A stretch of DNA of 64,000 nt, taken from an uncultured bacterium (GTDB lineage: Bacteria > Myxococcota_A > UBA796 > CAJQPC01). Below the pieces are notes generated by a model that worked only from the letters and a program-made list of their open reading frames with translations, searched no databases and was not told where the DNA came from. Shown here piece after piece: positions 49,614-55,495 of the stretch. The stretch spans positions 55,594 through 119,593 of the forward strand of contig CAJQPC010000071.1 of assembly GCA_905480105.1 (NCBI GenBank), in the 5' to 3' direction. A program made the position numbers and the translations under genes. The stretch's first letter is position 1; each line of letters opens with the position of its first letter.

Positions 49614-50843
49614 ATGGCGGATCGGAGAGCAGTCGTGATCGGAGGCGGCATCACGGGCACCTTGACGGGCTGTGCGCTGCTGCGTGCGGGCTGGGAAGTG
49701 ACCCTGATCGAGGCCCTGCACATCGGTGCCGGATCGAGCTCCCGCACCGCCGCAGGCATTCGCCAACAGTTTTCCACCCGCGAGAGCGTGCTGGGGATGC
49801 GCTATTCAGTGGATTTTTACAAGCACTGGCAACAGAGCATGGGCCAAGACGGCCAGCCCATCGAGCAGAACGGCTACCTCTTCTTGGTTCAAGGGGAAGA
49901 CGCGTGGAAGGCGGCGCAAAAGCGGGTCAGTGACCAACAGAACTGGGGACTCACAGAGGTTCAAGCGCTCAGCCCCCAACAAACGGTCGAGCGCTTCTCC
50001 TACGTCGACCCCGAAGAGATCACCGGTGCCACCTGGTGTCCGAGCGACGGATTTCTACGCCCAGACGTGGTCTACAGCGAAGCTGCCGCCGCCTTTCGCG
50101 CCCTGGGCGGGACCCTGCTCCAAGGCAGTCCACTGGTCCAGGCCGAGCGGGCCGGAGAGCGCCTAATCAGCATCACAACCGGCAAGGGCGCCGTCCTGAA
50201 CGCCGACGTTTTTCTGGACTGCACAAACGCCTGGAGTCGCCGTGTCGGGGACATCCTGGGTGCCGCACACCTGCCCATACAGGCCCTCAAACGCTACCTG
50301 TGGTTTATCGAGCGCGGCGACTCGATGAGCGAAGCTGAGCTACTCAACATGCCCCTGATCATCTCCCCACAGGGCGCCTACTGCAGGCCCGAGAACGCAG
50401 GTTCTCTCATGACCGGCTGGAAGCACCAAGCTCCCGATGTGAGCGCCAACTTTGCCTACGACGATCAAGACATCATAGAACCCGCCTACTTCCACAAGAA
50501 CGACGCCGATTCTCGGCCCTTCGAGACCTGGATGGCCTTGGCTCAGGCACTGCCACCCGTTGGCGAGTTCGCCGGTATCTCGGCCACCACCGCGGGCTTC
50601 TACGGCACCACCCCGGACCACAACCCCTTCTTGGACTTTGACCCGCAGACGAAGAACCTGATCCGCATGGTGGGTTTCTCCGGCCACGGCGCCATGTTCG
50701 GTCCCTTCTCCGCTCAGGTGGGCCTTGCACTGGCCGAAGCAGGCGAATCCATCGACCATGTCAGGGTCTTGGGCGAGGACGCCGAGCTGGCCCCCTTCAA
50801 GATCAATCGCGACTTTGGCGCCGCCGAGGCCATGGTCATCTGA
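49614..50843 (+). CDS. FAD-dependent oxidoreductase (DAO/sarcosine-oxidase-like family)
   Basis: Dinucleotide motif 'RAVVIGGGITGTLTGCALLRAGWEVTLIE'. 'GFSGHGAMFGP' is a typical C-terminal DAO block. Confidence 0.85.
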   Translation: MADRRAVVIGGGITGTLTGCALLRAGWEVTLIEALHIGAGSSSRTAAGIRQQFSTRESVLGMRYSVDFYKHWQQSMGQDGQPIEQNGYLFLVQGEDAWKAAQKRVSDQQNWGLTEVQALSPQQTVERFSYVDPEEITGATWCPSDGFLRPDVVYSEAAAAFRALGGTLLQGSPLVQAERAGERLISITTGKGAVLNADVFLDCTNAWSRRVGDILGAAHLPIQALKRYLWFIERGDSMSEAELLNMPLIISPQGAYCRPENAGSLMTGWKHQAPDVSANFAYDDQDIIEPAYFHKNDADSRPFETWMALAQALPPVGEFAGISATTAGFYGTTPDHNPFLDFDPQTKNLIRMVGFSGHGAMFGPFSAQVGLALAEAGESIDHVRVLGEDAELAPFKINRDFGAAEAMVI

Positions 50844-50900
50844 ACCCGCGTGCGCACCGCGTTAAGTGACCGTCCCGAAGTTTTCTTAGTTGGAGGACCG

Positions 50901-53069
<2,169 letters not shown>

Positions 53070-53095
53070 GCAGAGCCACCCCGTGAGAGCCGCCC

Positions 53096-53172
53096 ACTGC
53101 GGCTGTGTACTGCGGCTGAGCCAAGCCCCATAAAGCACTGCGGCTGAGCCAAGCCCCGGAAAGCACTGCTGG
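53096..53172. repeat. Short tandem repeat array (28-bp unit, 2 full plus 2 partial copies)
   Basis: 53109-53136 'ACTGCGGCTGAGCCAAGCCCCATAAAGC' and 53137-53164 'ACTGCGGCTGAGCCAAGCCCCGGAAAGC' (26/28 identical). Partial copies at 53096-53105 and 53165-53172. Confidence 0.85.
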
Positions 53173-53213
53173 AGTTTGCCCTAAAAGCAACTCAGACAGA
53201 CAAAAGCCGAAAA

Positions 53214-53262
53214 CGCAGAAAAGCCCCGAAGCCGTTTCCGGCTTCGGGGCTCTTCATTTTCT
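53214..53262. terminator. Strong intrinsic terminator, usable on both strands
   Basis: GCCCCGAAGCCG-TTTC-CGGCTTCGGGGC (53223-53250) is a perfect 12-bp stem. On the minus strand the loop reads GAAA and the stem is followed by TTTTCTGCGTTTTCGGCTTTTG. On the plus strand it is followed by TCTTCATTTTCT. Confidence 0.8.
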
Positions 53263-54880
53263 CCGCCGTCGCTTTCGCGTCCGCAGAGAGCCTCGTTTTC
53301 CCCCGCAAGGGATTGGAGGGTGACACCCAGCCCGTGGGATTTCCTGTCAGAGAATTCGGGTACTCAAAGCTCTCAGAGTTGCCTCTGTCCGCCTCTCGTG
53401 GGGTTTACCTGAACCTTCAGGTGGCAAACCAGCATTGCTGCTGTTTGTCTGACTGTGTGCTGCGAGTCGTTGGCCTTTCTCGCGTCCCTTCTTGGGCTTC
53501 ATCGGCTCCGCCTTTTGAGCGTGCTGTTTCGATGGGACCTTCAAGGTTTCTCACACACTGCCTGCTTCGTCTTGCAACGATGCCGCCTATTGTCCTTGGG
53601 CGCCTCCTTCAGAGACTCCTTCTTGTACCTGAGCCAGCAAGTCCTTGCTCGGTTTCATCGGCCTGCAAGCAGTCCTCTGTCCGTCTCAACTTCTCTACGA
53701 AGCCTCACCTACCGGGCTGCTTCGCTGTCTCCTTCTCTCCAGGGTTCTTCCGCCTCTCCACCGACATACTCGTCAGCGCCAAATCCTGTGATTCTTCTCC
53801 AAGATGCGCCTCAACTCTTGCGAGTCGTGCAGCCATCCTGTTCTCTGAATCCAATTCATCGACTCTCTTGCGACTCAAGATTGCTCCTGCTTCGCGATGC
53901 GTCCTCTTCAGCTTGATTTGGGTTGAATGAACGGTTGGCCTCGTAGCCAGCTGTTCCCCGAGCTTGTGTCTCCACTCGCTTGTACCTCGCTTCAACGCTT
54001 GCGCGCCTTTGCAAAGTCTCACCATGCTGTTGTTTCTCTCTTGCCAGAGAGAACTGGGTACGTCCTGAGCTTTCTCTGCTCCTCGACGCTTTTCTCCGCA
54101 TCTGAGCTGCAGGCTTATTGCATCCTGCTACCGGTCATAAGGTTCGCTTCCGTTTTGCTCGCTCTTTATCCGTCCGAAAACGGGGCCAGAGTGCTCCTCG
54201 TAGCGCATGACCCTTCAAAGACTTTCCCTCTCCAGAAGCTGAAACCACGTCTCCGTAGCTCCCGTTCCCTCTTGCTGTTTCTTCAAATGACCGCGGACGG
54301 TCCTCACTCGCAATTCTCGAAAGAACTGCGCCTCAGCTTCAGGGCTTTTACTCCTCTGGGAGAGTCCGTTTCGTCCGGTACCCGTTTCCAGGCACCTTCA
54401 GATCGATTCTTCCATGGGCTTTTGGACACTGATTGCGCCGTGGTTTCCGCCCCAAAGGGTGGTCCTAAGCCAGCTTGCTTTCCCAACGAGTTGGTTCCGC
54501 GCTCTGCCCGACTGGCTCCTCGTTCTTCCTGGTGATTACCAGTGGTCCCGAGCGCCCTGTCCCCCTGTTCCACTACCCCAACAAGTGAGGGCGTACAGAG
54601 ACGCCACACATCCGATTTCTCGGTCGCTCCGGTAGGAGCAGTGCAGCAGGTCGTCTACAATCAGCAATGTCAACGTCAAAGAACGTGTTCGAGCGTTTCT
54701 CTCGGCCGACCCCAGCAAGCCGGGTGTCGGTCTCTCCTTGTGCATTGACCGTGCCAACTTTTGGATCAAGTAATTTCAGCTACTTAGCTATGTGCAGTTG
54801 AGAACTCATTCTTTACACCCTGTCCATACGACCCGCCAATTACCAAGCAAGAGAACTCCAAGTACCTAATTTTACTTGTT
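53223..54880 (-). ncRNA. Candidate large (~1.6 kb) structured non-coding RNA, class unknown
   Basis: There is no ORF with plausible composition on either strand. Hand tallies of three 60-nt lines give 20/60, 16/60 and 23/60 purines on the plus strand, so the minus strand is purine-rich like structured RNAs. GC is about 55%, lower than the flanks. A promoter-like element lies at 54887-54916 and a terminator at 53223-53250, both in minus orientation. Several hairpins were verified (see findings). Confidence 0.45.
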
Positions 54881-54886
54881 GATGAA

Positions 54887-54916
54887 ATTATGTGCACAAT
54901 TATTTACAGTGTGTAA
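54887..54916 (-). promoter_or_regulatory. Sigma70-like promoter candidate for the minus-strand transcript
   Basis: On the minus strand: TTACAC (54916-54911), 18-nt spacer, CATAAT (54892-54887). It sits inside the only AT-rich island of the window (about 54770-54960). Confidence 0.3.
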
Positions 54917-55018
54917 GTATTTTTACACTCTAAATCGACATTCACTCGCAAGACTCTAAGCCAAGCCTTCTCCCCCCCTTCAGGATGCGCTATGGTGGCT
55001 CCTGAACTAGGAGACGCA

Positions 55019-55495
55019 ATGCGCATTCACCTCTGCATCCTGCTTGGAGCCCTGTCCTTGACCGCCTGCAAGAGCGGCGTCACGGTCGAAGACAGCGACA
55101 CCGGAGAAGAGGTCGTGGACGACGGACAGTCTCCAACTCTCAGCGAGCCCAGCGCCAAGTGCGTGGAGCATCCCGATGGCGAAGGCACCGTAGACCTCTG
55201 GAACTTCCAGGTGCTCTTCGATGATCCCCAAGGGACAGAAGATGTACCCCGCAACCTCTTCAGCGAGGCCGACGTGGATGATCAGCACCACATCGAGTGG
55301 CTGCGCGACGGCAACATGGTCGACCAAGCCGGAGTAGTCGCCTGCGACCCCGACGGCGGGACCTGCACCGGAAGCTTTCCCGGCGCATCTTACGGACTGA
55401 CCTGCGCCACCGCCACCGACTGGCGCTTCCGCTTCGTGATCAAGGACTACGACGGAAACGAGGGCACGATTGAGGTTCAGGGAGCAAAGGGCTGA
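55019..55495 (+). CDS. Hypothetical small lipoprotein
   Basis: ATG 55019 is preceded by GGAG. Lipobox 'GALSLTAC'. Acidic and Cys-containing (6 Cys after the lipobox). No family recognised. Confidence 0.6.
   Translation: MRIHLCILLGALSLTACKSGVTVEDSDTGEEVVDDGQSPTLSEPSAKCVEHPDGEGTVDLWNFQVLFDDPQGTEDVPRNLFSEADVDDQHHIEWLRDGNMVDQAGVVACDPDGGTCTGSFPGASYGLTCATATDWRFRFVIKDYDGNEGTIEVQGAKG

What the first reader, a model, noticed from the sequence alone, without database searches (positions are those of the whole stretch)
53214..54916. ~1.6 kb ORF-free, strand-skewed segment with promoter and terminator: candidate novel large structured ncRNA
This segment breaks the pattern of a window where genes are otherwise packed with 0-200 nt spacers.

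- No credible coding capacity: about 1.9 kb (53070-55018) has no credible CDS. The only ORFs are ~200-aa plus-strand frames with Ser/Leu/Cys/Phe/Arg-rich nonsense composition and minus-strand frames of 106 aa or less.
- Strand skew and GC: the plus strand is pyrimidine-rich. Hand counts on lines 53641, 53701 and 54301 give 33%, 27% and 38% purine. A minus-strand transcript would therefore be G+A-rich, as rRNAs and other large structured RNAs are. GC drops to about 55%.
- Transcription signals in minus orientation: the segment starts at the only AT-rich island in the window, which contains TTACAC-N18-CATAAT. It ends at a perfect 12-bp GC hairpin with a GAAA loop and a long U-rich tail (53223-53250).

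Hairpins I verified by hand, given in plus-strand coordinates but read on the minus strand:
- 54377-54394: GUGCCUG-GAAA-CGGGUAC, 7 bp including 2 G-U pairs.
- 54612-54623: CCGA-GAAA-UCGG.
- 53812-53827: CGACUC-GCAA-GAGUUG.
- 54034-54053: UUCUCUC-UGGCAA-GAGAGAA.
- 54704-54732: 8 bp with one bulge.

The density of GNRA tetraloops is what tertiary-contact-rich RNAs show. I recognise no rRNA, RNase P, tmRNA, group II intron domain V or other known signature.
Basis: partly seen in the sequence, partly recalled or inferred. Interest (0 to 1): 0.8.

Follow-up and report, generated by a model that had tools for sequence, protein, structure and literature searches.

The report
Giant structured RNA with sigma-54 promoter
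The gene-free stretch encodes a ~1.5-kb non-coding RNA with an elaborate, evolutionarily conserved fold; it belongs to a large family (over 120 environmental sequences, uncultured Myxococcota) that matches no catalogued RNA family and whose function is unknown.

Summary
Window ~53213-54730 (minus strand) is a stand-alone gene for a ~1.5-kb non-coding RNA.

- **Not in Rfam:** nothing in Rfam 15 matches it or 16 relatives.
- **Transcript-like contigs:** most are 1.0-2.7 kb. They start just downstream of the predicted start site and end about 28 nt after a conserved 3' motif, so they look like assembled transcripts.
- **Structure:** covariation is strong. In the 116-sequence core, 94.8% of cells pair against 22-41% in slid controls, with 397 compensatory cells. 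In the 72-sequence full-length consensus, 144 pairs are 90% paired, including 65 long-range pairs.
- **Not coding:** substitutions show no codon periodicity (46/38/50, against 34/17/179 in the neighbouring E1 gene). Only 16% of indels are multiples of 3.
- **Promoter:** it is not the sigma-70-like site in the AT-rich island. It is a sigma-54 promoter (TGGCACGG-N4-TGCA, 54756-54740), present in 14 of 14 genomic homologues.
- **Mechanism (inferred):** a signal-induced, compactly folded trans-acting RNA that acts as an RNP core or a ribozyme-like machine.

This appears to be a new class of very large bacterial structured RNA.

The parts
54757..54831 (-). Conserved upstream region of the promoter. 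It includes CTAAGTAGCTGAAATTAC (54787-54770). It may hold the activator (bEBP) or IHF binding sites, within the AT-rich divergent intergenic region shared with the lipoprotein gene 54992-55495.
   Evidence: AAGTG(G/C)CTGAAAT is conserved 14-31 nt upstream of TGGCAC in window, L004, L001, L002, L008, L024 and L161. Other clades carry a TGTGGAAAAC..GTTTTCCACA inverted repeat there instead. Function is inferred only.
54740..54756 (-). Sigma-54 (RpoN) type promoter TGGCACGGTCAATGCAC. The -24 GG is at 54755-54754 and the -12 GC at 54743-54742. The predicted transcription start is about 54730.
   Evidence: The motif (AAAGT)TGGCACGG-N4-TGCA(A/T) is present in 14 of 14 homologous genomic contigs that have at least 125 nt upstream. 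Transcript-like contigs begin a few nt downstream of the start predicted from it, in two subfamilies with different spacing.
53213..54730 (-). Primary transcript of the large structured ncRNA, about 1518 nt from the predicted start to the end of the terminator U-tract.
   Evidence: The whole length is homologous in L004, L001 and L002. Conserved blocks run along the entire length in 46-72 family members. 118 of the 144 consensus pairs form in the window sequence. There is a single copy in the window.
54673..54730 (-). 5' domain. It consists of the terminal hairpin CCGACACCCGG-CUUG-CUGGGGUCGG (54730-54706), the hairpin CGAG-AGAAACG-CUCG (54704-54690), and the near-invariant motif UCUUUGACGU (54682-54673).
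   Evidence: The hairpin (ACCGAG...CUCGG) followed by the TCTTTGACGT motif is present in 76 short contigs and all genomic homologues. TCTTTG is 10-fold enriched in the family.
54425..54672 (-). Clade-specific expansion region, 20 to about 1100 nt long in other members.
   Evidence: The distance from TCTTTGACGT to AAGCCCA ranges from 21 nt (L161) to about 1070 nt (L118). This region is not conserved outside the window's clade.
54195..54424 (-). Core domain part 1.

- Conserved motifs: AAGCCCA (54421-54415), AACGGACUC (54370-54362), GGGAAAGUCUUUGAAGGGU (54228-54210).
- Long-range helices: GAAGA 54412-54408 with UCUUU 54221-54217; 54364-54353 with 54238-54228.
- Other helices: GCCCU with AGGGC, GCUG with CAGC, and the GAAA-capped hairpin 54396-54377.
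   Evidence: The helices are 91-99% paired, with 3-6 pair types per position, in 72 sequences.
54032..54157 (-). Core domain part 2.

- The 37-nt signature GAACCUUAUGACCGGUAGCAGGAUGCAAUAAGCCUGC (54145-54109), containing helix GCAGG/CCUGC.
- UGCGGAG (54100-54094).
- A two-tier hairpin with a GAGAAA loop (54089-54060).
   Evidence: Alignment A1 of 116 distinct sequences gives 25 pairs, 94.8% paired against 21.6-41.1% in slid controls. There are 397 compensatory cells against 44-91, and 0 of 500 shuffles reach any of the five measures. CM R1 scores this segment at 106 bits, E=2e-32.
53315..54031 (-). 3' domain.

- Conserved blocks:
  - GGACGCAUCG (53904-53895)
  - GUCGGUGGAGAGGCGGA (53765-53749)
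  - GAACCCUGGAGAGAAGG (53747-53731)
  - CUCUGAAGGAGGC (53614-53602)
  - GAAAGGCCAACGACUCGCAG (53479-53460)
  - CACCUGAAGGUUCAGG (53423-53408)
  - AACCCCACGAGAGGC (53405-53391)
  - the 3' motif UUCUCUGACAGGAAAUCC (53354-53337)
  - the closing hairpin (53338-53319)
- Long-range helices back to the core:
  - ACCGGU 54135-54130 with GUCGGU 53765-53760
  - CCUU 54142-54139 with GAGG 53756-53753
  - UGCG 54100-54097 with CGCA 53901-53898
  - ACCC 53745-53742 with 53345-53342
   Evidence: The 65 long-range pairs are 89% paired against 38-46% in slid controls, with 562-682 compensatory cells against 110-179, and 0 of 300 shuffles reach the observed values. In 66 transcript-like contigs the 3' end lies a median 28.5 nt after the 3' motif. 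This suggests a mature 3' end near 53315 in the window (inference).
53218..53255 (.). Bidirectional intrinsic terminator. It is a hairpin with a GAAA loop (17 pairs counted on the minus strand, 13 on the plus), followed by a U-tract on the minus strand (UUUUCUGCGUUUUCG). It is shared with the convergent E1 gene, which ends at 53069.
   Evidence: Terminator scan on both strands. The hairpin is kept with compensatory changes in L001 and L002.

Best explanation
Window 53213-54730 (minus strand) is an independent gene for a very large (~1.5 kb), highly structured, non-coding RNA of a previously uncatalogued family.

**Shown here**
- The gene has a conserved sigma-54 promoter (54756-54740) and its own intrinsic terminator. 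There is no same-strand gene between them.
- The sequence belongs to a family of at least 120 members, 1.0-2.7 kb long. They share about 20-35 conserved sequence blocks separated by variable, UUCG- or GNRA-capped expansion hairpins.
- The blocks are tied together by local and long-range helices that covary, so the RNA folds into a multi-domain, globular architecture.
- It does not evolve like coding sequence.

**Inferred**
- Transcription needs an AAA+ enhancer-binding activator, so the RNA is made in response to a specific signal.
- The RNA accumulates to high levels in nature, because most family members were recovered as transcript-shaped contigs.
- The 3' end is probably trimmed back to a closing hairpin about 28 nt after the last conserved motif.
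- It most likely acts in trans as a stable folded particle, either as the RNA core of a ribonucleoprotein or as a ribozyme-like or self-assembling RNA. It does not look like a base-pairing regulator, a leader or an mRNA.

Its biochemical function is unknown.
For: **Homology**
- blastn, nhmmer and a profile find the region full-length in L004, L001 and L002, and its core in L008, L024, L038, L073 and L077.
Nearly all are confirmed by the profile.

**Structure**
- RNAalifold on 116 core sequences gives 25 pairs, 16 of them with double compensatory changes. One example is a pair with UA62/CG33/UG15/AU6 and none broken.
- Counts with controls: 94.8% paired against 22-41% in slid controls, 397 compensatory cells against 44-91, and 0 of 500 shuffles.
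- The full-length consensus on 72 sequences has 144 pairs, 90% paired against 35-45%, with 1452 compensatory cells against 302-383.
- Its 65 long-range pairs are 88.8% paired against 38-46%.
- The result holds after de-duplication to 61 sequences, with 0 of 300 shuffles.
- CTTCGG is 8.5-fold enriched.
- Fold z-scores are -3.0 and -5.9 on the minus strand against -1.1 on the plus strand.

**Non-coding**
- Mismatches by phase are 46/38/50 for window against L004, and show no periodicity in 94 of 95 pairs (one p=0.011, as expected by chance).
- Only 16% of 4828 indels are multiples of 3.
- The E1 control at the same divergence gives 34/17/179, p=1e-45.
- There are no Pfam hits.

**Transcription unit**
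- The sigma-54 motif is present in 14 of 14 genomic homologues.
- Of 76 short contigs, 68 start 4-69 nt upstream of TCTTTGACGT. This is just inside the predicted transcript. Only three of these short contigs (L083, L111, L140) hold the promoter upstream; L147 holds it too but is not in that listing.
- Contig 3' ends lie a median 28.5 nt after the 3' motif.
- Terminator.

**Not a known family**
- Rfam 15 gives nothing at gathering score on the window, nothing relevant at E<=10 on the region, and nothing at E<=1 on 16 diverse members.
- Five full-text literature searches for such an RNA found no description.
Against: - No direct expression data exist for this genome. That the short contigs are metatranscriptome assemblies is inferred from their shape, not from metadata.
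- The function is entirely unknown. Neighbouring genes give no clue (fused E1, FAD oxidoreductase, an unannotated lipoprotein, DUF7226).
- No activator gene or protein partner was identified.
- The RNAalifold consensus was derived from the same alignments on which pairs were counted, which inflates the percentage paired. Compensatory counts and shuffles are less affected.
- R-scape-type significance testing was not available.
- A description in a subscription journal or a very recent paper cannot be excluded.
Confidence: 0.87

Rival explanations
1. The RNA is real, but it works as a protein sponge (CsrB/RsmZ or 6S-like sequestration). It would titrate an RNA-binding protein through repeated short motifs such as YUGAAGG and CCCA(U/C)G(G/A), rather than through a specific globular fold.
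For: - TGAAGG/GAAGGT are 3.4-3.6-fold and ACCCCA/AACCCC 5-6-fold enriched in the family.
- The window RNA has 4 conserved YUGAAGG sites and several CCCAYG sites.
- The RNA is purine-rich and apparently abundant.
Against: - The two family-wide YUGAAGG-type motifs sit at fixed positions. Their pyrimidine halves are predicted to be base-paired in covarying long-range helices: UCUUU with GAAGA, and CUCU with AGAG.
- Sponges typically keep motif copy number, not a conserved multi-domain architecture with 65 long-range pairs.
- The number of motifs does not scale with RNA length in any obvious way.
Confidence: 0.1
2. The segment is a decayed protein-coding gene, or an mRNA for one or more small conserved proteins.
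For: - Purine-rich sense strands are typical of coding DNA.
- GC-rich family members have long stop-free frames: median longest ORF 178 aa sense and 244 aa antisense, against 113 aa in shuffles.
- Such frames have been annotated as 'hypothetical protein' in public data.
Against: - There is no codon periodicity in 94 of 95 sequence pairs, while the flanking E1 gene shows 34/17/179 at the same divergence.
- 84% of indels are not multiples of 3.
- There are no Pfam matches.
- The window copy has stops in all frames.
- The recurrent AUG in CCCAUGG is replaced by AGG, AAG or ACG in many members.
- Compensatory base-pair changes explain the conservation.
- ORFs under about 25 aa were not tested one by one.
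Confidence: 0.02
3. It is the RNA of a mobile or selfish element. Candidates are an ORF-less or circularly permuted group II intron, an IS-associated guide or bridge RNA, or a prophage RNA like GOLLD/ROOL.
For: The size and structural complexity are in the range of group II introns. Large ornate RNAs such as GOLLD and ROOL are often phage-borne (own knowledge; abstract of PMC12286853).
Against: - No group II intron, HEARO, GOLLD, ROOL or any other Rfam model matches, even at E<=10.
- There is a single copy in the window.
- The location is syntenic, convergent with the same fused E1 gene, in 11 of 12 genomic loci. Two of these were found independently of E1.
- No RT, nuclease, transposase or integrase gene is adjacent.
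- There are no tRNAs nearby.
- The signature motif occurs zero times in 2.9 million viral contigs.
- blastn finds no match in phage or plasmid collections.
- It has its own sigma-54 promoter rather than sitting inside a host gene.
Confidence: 0.02
4. It is a cis-acting element of the neighbouring operon. It would be a long antisense or 3'-UTR transcript whose role is to regulate the convergent E1 dehydrogenase gene, for example by transcriptional interference or terminator sharing.
For: The RNA gene is convergent with, and immediately downstream of, the fused E1 gene in most genomic loci, and the two share a bidirectional terminator.
Against: - There is no overlap with the E1 CDS. E1 stops at 53069 and the terminator is at 53218-53255.
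- In L008 the RNA (with its lipoprotein neighbour) is inverted and about 3.3 kb from E1. In L024 it is about 2.4 kb away. In L161 no E1 is seen.
- Most of the 80 E1 loci lack the RNA within the fetched flanks.
- A 1-2.7 kb covarying tertiary-type architecture is not needed for interference.
Confidence: 0.03

Closest known systems
OLE RNA (ornate, large, extremophilic; Rfam RF01071)
   Same: Both are chromosomal, stand-alone, large, intricately folded bacterial ncRNAs. Both have highly conserved single-stranded nucleotides between covarying helices, apparently high abundance and unknown biochemistry. OLE works as an RNP (abstracts of PMC9723947 and PMC12054373).
   Different: - OLE is about 600 nt, is found in Bacillota extremophiles and anaerobes, and is linked to the oapA gene.
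- This RNA is 1.0-2.7 kb, occurs in Myxococcota, is driven by sigma-54, and has no Rfam match and no linked partner gene.
GOLLD and ROOL RNAs (Rfam RF01998, RF03087)
   Same: Both are very large 'ornate' bacterial RNAs discovered from environmental or metagenomic sequence, with unknown function and multi-domain folds. GOLLD and ROOL self-assemble into RNA-only homo-oligomers (PMC12286853 abstract). That remains a possible mode for this RNA.
   Different: - GOLLD (~800 nt) and ROOL (~580 nt) are typically in prophages and next to tRNAs (own knowledge).
- This RNA is larger, syntenic in the chromosome and absent from viral contigs and phage records. It has no tRNA neighbours and no sequence or structure match.
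raiA motif RNA
   Same: Both are abundant, structured ncRNAs of unknown function with a conserved multi-stem architecture (PMC12968392 abstract).
   Different: raiA is about 200 nt and occurs in Bacillota and Actinomycetota (own knowledge). There is no Rfam match here.
Group II introns, including circularly permuted ORF-less forms
   Same: The size range is comparable. Both have a multi-domain fold with long-range tertiary-type helices and GNRA-type loops.
   Different: - There is no domain V/VI or D1-D4 model match.
- The most conserved hairpin has a 7-nt G(A/U)G(A/G)AA-type loop and a two-sided internal loop, not the domain V geometry.
- It has its own promoter and terminator, no host gene, no IEP, and a single syntenic copy.
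RNase P RNA / rRNA domains (universal large structured RNAs)
   Same: The evolutionary style is the same. An invariant core of short single-stranded motifs and helices tolerates lineage-specific expansion segments of tens to more than 1000 nt at fixed sites, capped by UUCG or GNRA loops.
   Different: There is no match to RNase P, SSU or LSU models. The distribution is lineage-restricted, and the promoter is sigma-54 dependent, that is, conditional.
Sigma-54-dependent regulatory sRNAs (Qrr1-5 with LuxO; GlmY with GlrR)
   Same: Both are non-coding RNA genes transcribed from a -24/-12 promoter, so they are under control of an enhancer-binding protein (own knowledge of these systems).
   Different: Those are 100-200 nt base-pairing or decoy sRNAs. 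This RNA is ten times larger, with a globular covarying architecture.

Membership tests
Any Rfam 15 family (4227 models, including OLE, GOLLD, ROOL, HEARO, raiA, group II intron domains, RNase P, tmRNA, 6S, SRP, rRNAs) | Covariance-model match at or near the family's gathering score | tested here: not met
   - There are 0 matches at gathering score in the 64-kb window.
- At E<=10 on 52900-55100 the only hits are chance matches, mostly on the terminator; the best is sraL at 21.7 bits against a cut-off of 39.
- There are 0 matches at E<=1 in 16 diverse family members.
Structured non-coding RNA (generic) | Conserved secondary structure supported by compensatory base changes beyond controls | tested here: met
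   - Core: 94.8% of cells paired against 22-41% in slid controls, 397 compensatory cells against 44-91, and 0 of 500 shuffles.
- Full length: 144 pairs, 90% against 35-45%, and 1452 against 302-383. This holds on 61 sequences at <=90% identity, with 0 of 300 shuffles.
Structured non-coding RNA (generic) | Absence of protein-coding signature | tested here: met
   - There is no 3-nt periodicity of substitutions in 94 of 95 pairs.
- 16% of indels are multiples of 3.
- The E1 positive control gives 34/17/179.
- There are no Pfam hits.
Structured non-coding RNA (generic) | Demonstrated stable transcript of the predicted strand and ends | tested here: inconclusive
   - The evidence is indirect. Of 76 short public contigs, 68 start 4-69 nt upstream of TCTTTGACGT, just inside the predicted transcript.
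- 54 of 66 end within 60 nt after the 3' motif.
- Dataset metadata (metatranscriptome or not) and strand could not be checked. There are no data for the window's own organism.
Sigma-54 (RpoN) dependent promoter | GG at -24 and GC at -12 with fixed spacing, matching TGGCACG-N4-TTGCW, placed 10-14 nt upstream of the 5' end | tested here: met
   - The window has TGGCACGGTCAATGCAC at 54756-54740.
- The motif is conserved in 14 of 14 genomic homologues, despite divergence of the surrounding sequence.
- Transcript-like contigs start a few nt after the predicted +1.
Sigma-54 (RpoN) dependent promoter | Dependence on RpoN and on an AAA+ enhancer-binding activator bound upstream | not testable with these tools
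   Conserved upstream elements exist, but no activator gene is adjacent. Genetics is needed.
Group II intron | Domain V catalytic hairpin (AGC triad, 2-nt bulge, GNRA loop), domain VI bulged A, insertion within a host gene, often an IEP ORF | tested here: not met
   - No intron model matches.
- The conserved hairpins have a different geometry.
- The element is a stand-alone promoter-to-terminator unit with no ORF.
GOLLD / ROOL type phage-associated ornate RNAs | Location in prophage or phage genomes, frequently adjacent to tRNA genes | tested here: not met
   - The signature motif has 0 hits in viral contigs.
- There is no blastn match in 50,697 phage records.
- There are no tRNAs in the window or in the 28 related loci scanned, which include all 11 genomic loci.
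- The gene is chromosomal and syntenic with E1.
OLE RNP | Genetic linkage to oapA and oapB/oapC partners; Bacillota hosts | tested here: not met
   The neighbours are a fused E1, a DAO oxidoreductase, an unannotated lipoprotein and DUF7226. The hosts are Myxococcota MAGs.
CsrB/RsmZ-type protein sponge | Many copies of a short binding motif displayed in hairpin loops or single strands, with little other conserved architecture | tested here: inconclusive
   Some short motifs recur. However, the conserved copies lie in covarying helices, and the RNA has an extensive fixed architecture. No binding protein is known.

The most novel reading that the evidence does not exclude
This would be the founding member of a new class of giant (1.0-2.7 kb) bacterial RNA machines. 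On this reading it is a ribozyme, or an RNA-only or RNP assembly, with its own biochemical activity. It would be the largest conserved structured bacterial RNA outside rRNA and self-splicing introns. It would be switched on by a sigma-54/enhancer-binding-protein signal and be highly expressed by uncultured Myxococcota in soils, sediments and waters.
Probability: 0.25. Interest if true: 0.95.

Novelty: categorically new. Interest (0 to 1): 0.88.

Why it matters
- **Rarity.** Large, complex-folded bacterial ncRNAs are very rare. Almost every one understood so far performs sophisticated biochemistry (ribosome, RNase P, introns, tmRNA) or has yielded surprises, such as the OLE RNP and the GOLLD/ROOL nanocages.
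- **Scale.** A family two to four times larger than OLE, GOLLD or ROOL would be a prime target for cryo-EM, ribozyme hunting and RNP discovery. It has dozens of invariant single-stranded motifs, long-range covarying helices and rRNA-like expansion segments.
- **A handle on function.** The strictly conserved sigma-54 promoter implies a dedicated activator and a signal. That gives an experimental route to function that most orphan large RNAs lack.
- **Annotation.** The RNA appears to be abundant in environmental transcript data from a poorly known branch of Myxococcota. It is probably being mis-annotated as 'hypothetical proteins' or discarded. A covariance model would improve annotation of metatranscriptomes and MAGs.

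Tried and rejected
**Leads that gave nothing**
- Exact look-up of the E1 protein's contig: not on record.
- Rfam at permissive thresholds on the region and on 16 relatives: nothing.
- Protein-level search with a spurious antisense ORF (L118, 437 aa) to find more genomic contexts. It returned only 19 clusters, all on contigs of 2214 nt or less, so no new long loci.
- Conserved-neighbour analysis in 12 genomic loci. Only the E1 synteny and clade-specific neighbours emerged.
  - The Rho-like gene upstream in one clade is also next to E1 in RNA-less genomes, so it is synteny and not a partner.
  - Pfam on the window neighbours was uninformative.
- CM search of all 80 E1 loci for divergent copies: none beyond the 8 known.
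- Viral contigs, phage and plasmid collections: no matches.
- tRNA linkage: none.
- Five literature searches for a description of such an RNA: none found. A sixth search, on Pxr and sigma-54, was also uninformative.
- E-INS-i with 20 iterations on 72 sequences timed out. It was rerun with 2-3 iterations.
- All-against-all blastp of sense ORFs was uninformative. Nucleotide conservation merges everything into one cluster. The periodicity test replaced it.

**Interpretations rejected**
- The sigma-70-like promoter at 54887-54915 as the RNA's promoter.
- A pseudogene.
- A group II intron.
- An antisense regulator of E1.


Full report
**1. The observation**

- The three hand counts of plus-strand purine content (33%, 27%, 38%) are exact.
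- The 1.5-kb stretch starting near 53240 is the most purine-poor of the whole 64-kb window: 39% against a mean of 49.5%, about 5 SD below.
- GC falls to 56% against 62% for the window.
- The only 150-nt windows below 45% GC lie at 54723-55034.
- All six frames are broken by stops or give low-complexity nonsense. None of eight ORFs of 65-205 aa reaches a Pfam threshold.
- A terminator hairpin with a GAAA loop and 17 pairs on the minus strand is found at 53218-53255, on both strands.
- The minus strand folds better than dinucleotide shuffles (z = -3.0 and -5.9 for the two halves). The plus strand does not (z = -1.1).

**2. It is conserved, and it is a large family**

I used the flanking fused E1 dehydrogenase gene (50850-53069) as an anchor and fetched 80 loci from uncultured Myxococcota/"Deltaproteobacteria" MAGs.
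- blastn, nhmmer and then a profile of the closest four sequences found the region homologous over its whole length in L004 (88%), L001 (86%) and L002. L002 shows blocks of 73-83% identity separated by indels.
- The central part is present in L008, L024, L038, L073 and L077.
- A 37-nt signature from the most conserved block is GAACCNNANGNNNGGNNGCAGGNTGNAANANNCCTGC, in RNA sense, at window 54145-54109.
Nearly all were confirmed by the profile.
- An E-INS-i alignment shows about 35 conserved blocks spread over the entire window RNA, including the 3' half.
- The blocks are separated by expansion sites whose length varies from about 20 to over 1000 nt.

**3. It is RNA structure, not protein, that is conserved**

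Structure:
- In 116 distinct core segments (alignment A1), RNAalifold predicts 25 pairs, and 16 show double compensatory changes. Pairs such as UA62/CG33/UG15/AU6 and CG81/GC33/UA2 have no broken cell.
- With controls, 94.8% of cells pair against 22-41% when partners are slid by 1-3 columns. There are 397 compensatory cells against 44-91. None of 500 column shuffles reaches any of the five measures.
- On 72 near-full-length members, a consensus of 144 pairs is 90% paired against 35-45%, with 1452 compensatory cells against 302-383.
- The 65 pairs that join positions at least 100 nt apart in the window RNA are 88.8% paired against 38-46%.
- The result holds on 61 sequences at <=90% identity, with 0 of 300 shuffles.
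- Examples of long-range helices, in window coordinates on the minus strand:
  - ACCGGU 54135-54130 with GUCGGU 53765-53760
  - GAAGA 54412-54408 with UCUUU 54221-54217
  - 54364-54353 with 54238-54228
  - UGCG 54100-54097 with CGCA 53901-53898
- CTTCGG (UUCG tetraloop hairpins) is 8.5-fold enriched, with 413 copies in 72 RNAs.

Coding test:
- Substitutions between the window and L004 fall 46/38/50 on the three phases.
- At the same divergence the E1 gene gives 34/17/179, p = 1e-45.
- Of 95 family pairs, 94 show no periodicity. Only 16% of 4828 indels are multiples of three.

At least three are supported by covariation.

**4. The transcription unit**

- All 14 homologous genomic contigs with at least 125 nt of upstream sequence carry (AAAGT)TGGCACGG-N4-TGCA(A/T), a textbook sigma-54 -24/-12 promoter.
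- In the window it lies at 54756-54740, predicting a start near 54730. That is the first base of the conserved 5' hairpin (54730-54706).
- Independent support comes from the shape of the public contigs.
  - Of 76 short contigs holding the 5' motif TCTTTGACGT, 68 begin 4-69 nt upstream of it. This is just inside the predicted transcript.
  - The two subfamilies with different promoter-to-motif spacing (72-78 nt and 93-102 nt) shift their 5' ends accordingly.
  - Only three of the 76 (L083, L111, L140) include the promoter.
- At the other end, 54 of 66 contigs stop within 60 nt of the 3' motif CUCUGAAGGGG (median 28.5 nt, IQR 24-38.5).
- Random genomic fragments would not behave like this, so I infer that these contigs are assembled transcripts. 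The RNA therefore appears abundant in nature. I could not check dataset metadata.
- In the window the equivalent mature 3' end would be near 53315. The primary transcript probably runs to the terminator U-tract near 53213.

**5. What it is not**

- Rfam 15 gives nothing at gathering score. It gives nothing relevant at E<=10 on the region and nothing at E<=1 on 16 diverse members. This excludes OLE, GOLLD, ROOL, HEARO, raiA, group II intron domains, RNase P, tmRNA, 6S and rRNAs as homologues.
- The signature is absent from 2.9 million viral contigs. The RNA has no blastn match in phage or plasmid collections.
- No tRNA is nearby, and there is one copy in the window.
- The gene is syntenic. It lies convergent with, and just downstream of, the fused E1 gene in 11 of 12 genomic loci. 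Two of those (L131, L153) were found by the motif alone.
- It is not tied to E1 functionally.
  - In L008 the RNA with its lipoprotein neighbour is inverted and about 3.3 kb away from E1.
  - In L024 it is about 2.4 kb away.
  - Most E1 loci lack it within the fetched flanks.
- Neighbouring genes give no functional hint.
- A Rho-like gene divergent from the promoter in one clade is also next to E1 in RNA-less genomes.
- Five full-text literature searches found no description of such an RNA.

**6. How it most likely works**

Shown here:
- The gene is stand-alone, running from a sigma-54 promoter to a terminator.
- It produces a non-coding RNA.
- The family-wide architecture is a fixed core of short invariant single-stranded motifs (UCUUUGACGU, AAGCCCA, AACGGACUC, the GUGCAACA loop, GGAGNAAAC, GGCGGAAC, the UGGCA loop, GGUGGAG, CUCUGAAGGGG).
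- These motifs are held together by local and long-range covarying helices. Lineage-specific expansion hairpins sit at fixed sites. This is the evolutionary style of RNase P RNA and rRNA.

Inferred:
- Transcription requires an enhancer-binding AAA+ activator and is therefore signal-dependent.
- The RNA is stable and abundant.
- It acts in trans as a compact folded particle, most likely the core of an RNP or a ribozyme-like or self-assembling RNA, as with OLE, GOLLD and ROOL.
- A sponge model is the main mechanistic rival. It fits poorly, because the recurrent motifs lie in covarying helices at fixed positions.

**7. Verdict**

The region is a member of a new, apparently abundant family of very large structured RNAs in uncultured Myxococcota. 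The RNA call has a confidence of about 0.87, and the mechanism is open. Interest is high.

Noticed in passing
window 53109-53169: A 28-nt tandem repeat (ACTGCGGCTGAGCCAAGCCCCAGAAAGC, 2.2 copies, 93% match). It lies between the E1 stop codon (53069) and the shared terminator, outside the RNA.
   Followed up: partly
L073 6058-7257; also L038 14290-15480, L131 796-1995, L077 12987-13547, L140 2345-2737: - A Rho-like 400-aa gene lies divergent from the RNA promoter.
- Its N-terminal RNA-binding domain is intact, but its Walker A is degenerate (GQRVAVVAPPRIDRVG instead of ...APPKAGKT).
- It is followed by prfA.
- The same gene sits next to E1 in RNA-less loci (L022, L013, L051 and others), so the linkage looks like synteny only.
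   Followed up: partly
window 54757-54831 and homologous positions in L004, L001, L002, L008, L024, L161, L038, L073, L131, L140: Conserved elements lie upstream of the sigma-54 promoter.
- One set of clades has AAGTG(G/C)C(T/C)GAAAT 14-31 nt upstream.
- Another has a TGTGGAAAAC-N28-GTTTTCCACA inverted repeat with an inner GGGAAA...TCCCA palindrome.

These are candidate activator sites.
   Followed up: no
L081-L200 (short contigs), 3' ends: The 3' ends of the transcript-like contigs cluster at ...GGUGCCA(A)C, without a U-tract, about 28 nt after the last conserved motif. Some members (L134, L171, L125) and the window have an intrinsic terminator further downstream. This suggests 3' processing of a longer primary transcript.
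   Followed up: partly
L094 (RNA sense), last ~90 nt: The contig ends with a tRNA-like T-arm and acceptor sequence (GGTCGTGGGTTCGATCCCCATCGCTCACCCCA) downstream of the RNA. ARAGORN calls no tRNA there. It may be a fragment or an assembly chimera.
   Followed up: partly
A1 columns 57-88: L118, L098, L182, L103, L117, L095, L109: One clade carries an extra hairpin (UUCG-capped in all but L109) inserted between helix GCAGG/CCUGC and the UGCGGAG motif. This is an example of an expansion segment at a fixed site.
   Followed up: no
P0001-P0019 (public protein collection): Stop-free antisense frames of this GC-rich RNA have been called as genes and named 'hypothetical protein' in JGI, ENA and Logan data. 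All lie on contigs of 2214 nt or less. These are probably annotation artefacts.
   Followed up: partly
window 49614-53069: The fused E1 alpha/beta dehydrogenase gene (739 aa; E1_dh + Transket_pyr + Transketolase_C) is preceded by a DAO-family FAD oxidoreductase, not by an E2 acyltransferase as the context might suggest.
   Followed up: no
window 54992-55495 and L004, L002, L008 homologues: A 151-191-aa predicted lipoprotein (lipobox LTAC, no Pfam match) is divergent from the RNA promoter. It stays attached to the RNA gene in L008, where the pair is inverted relative to the flanking genes.
   Followed up: partly
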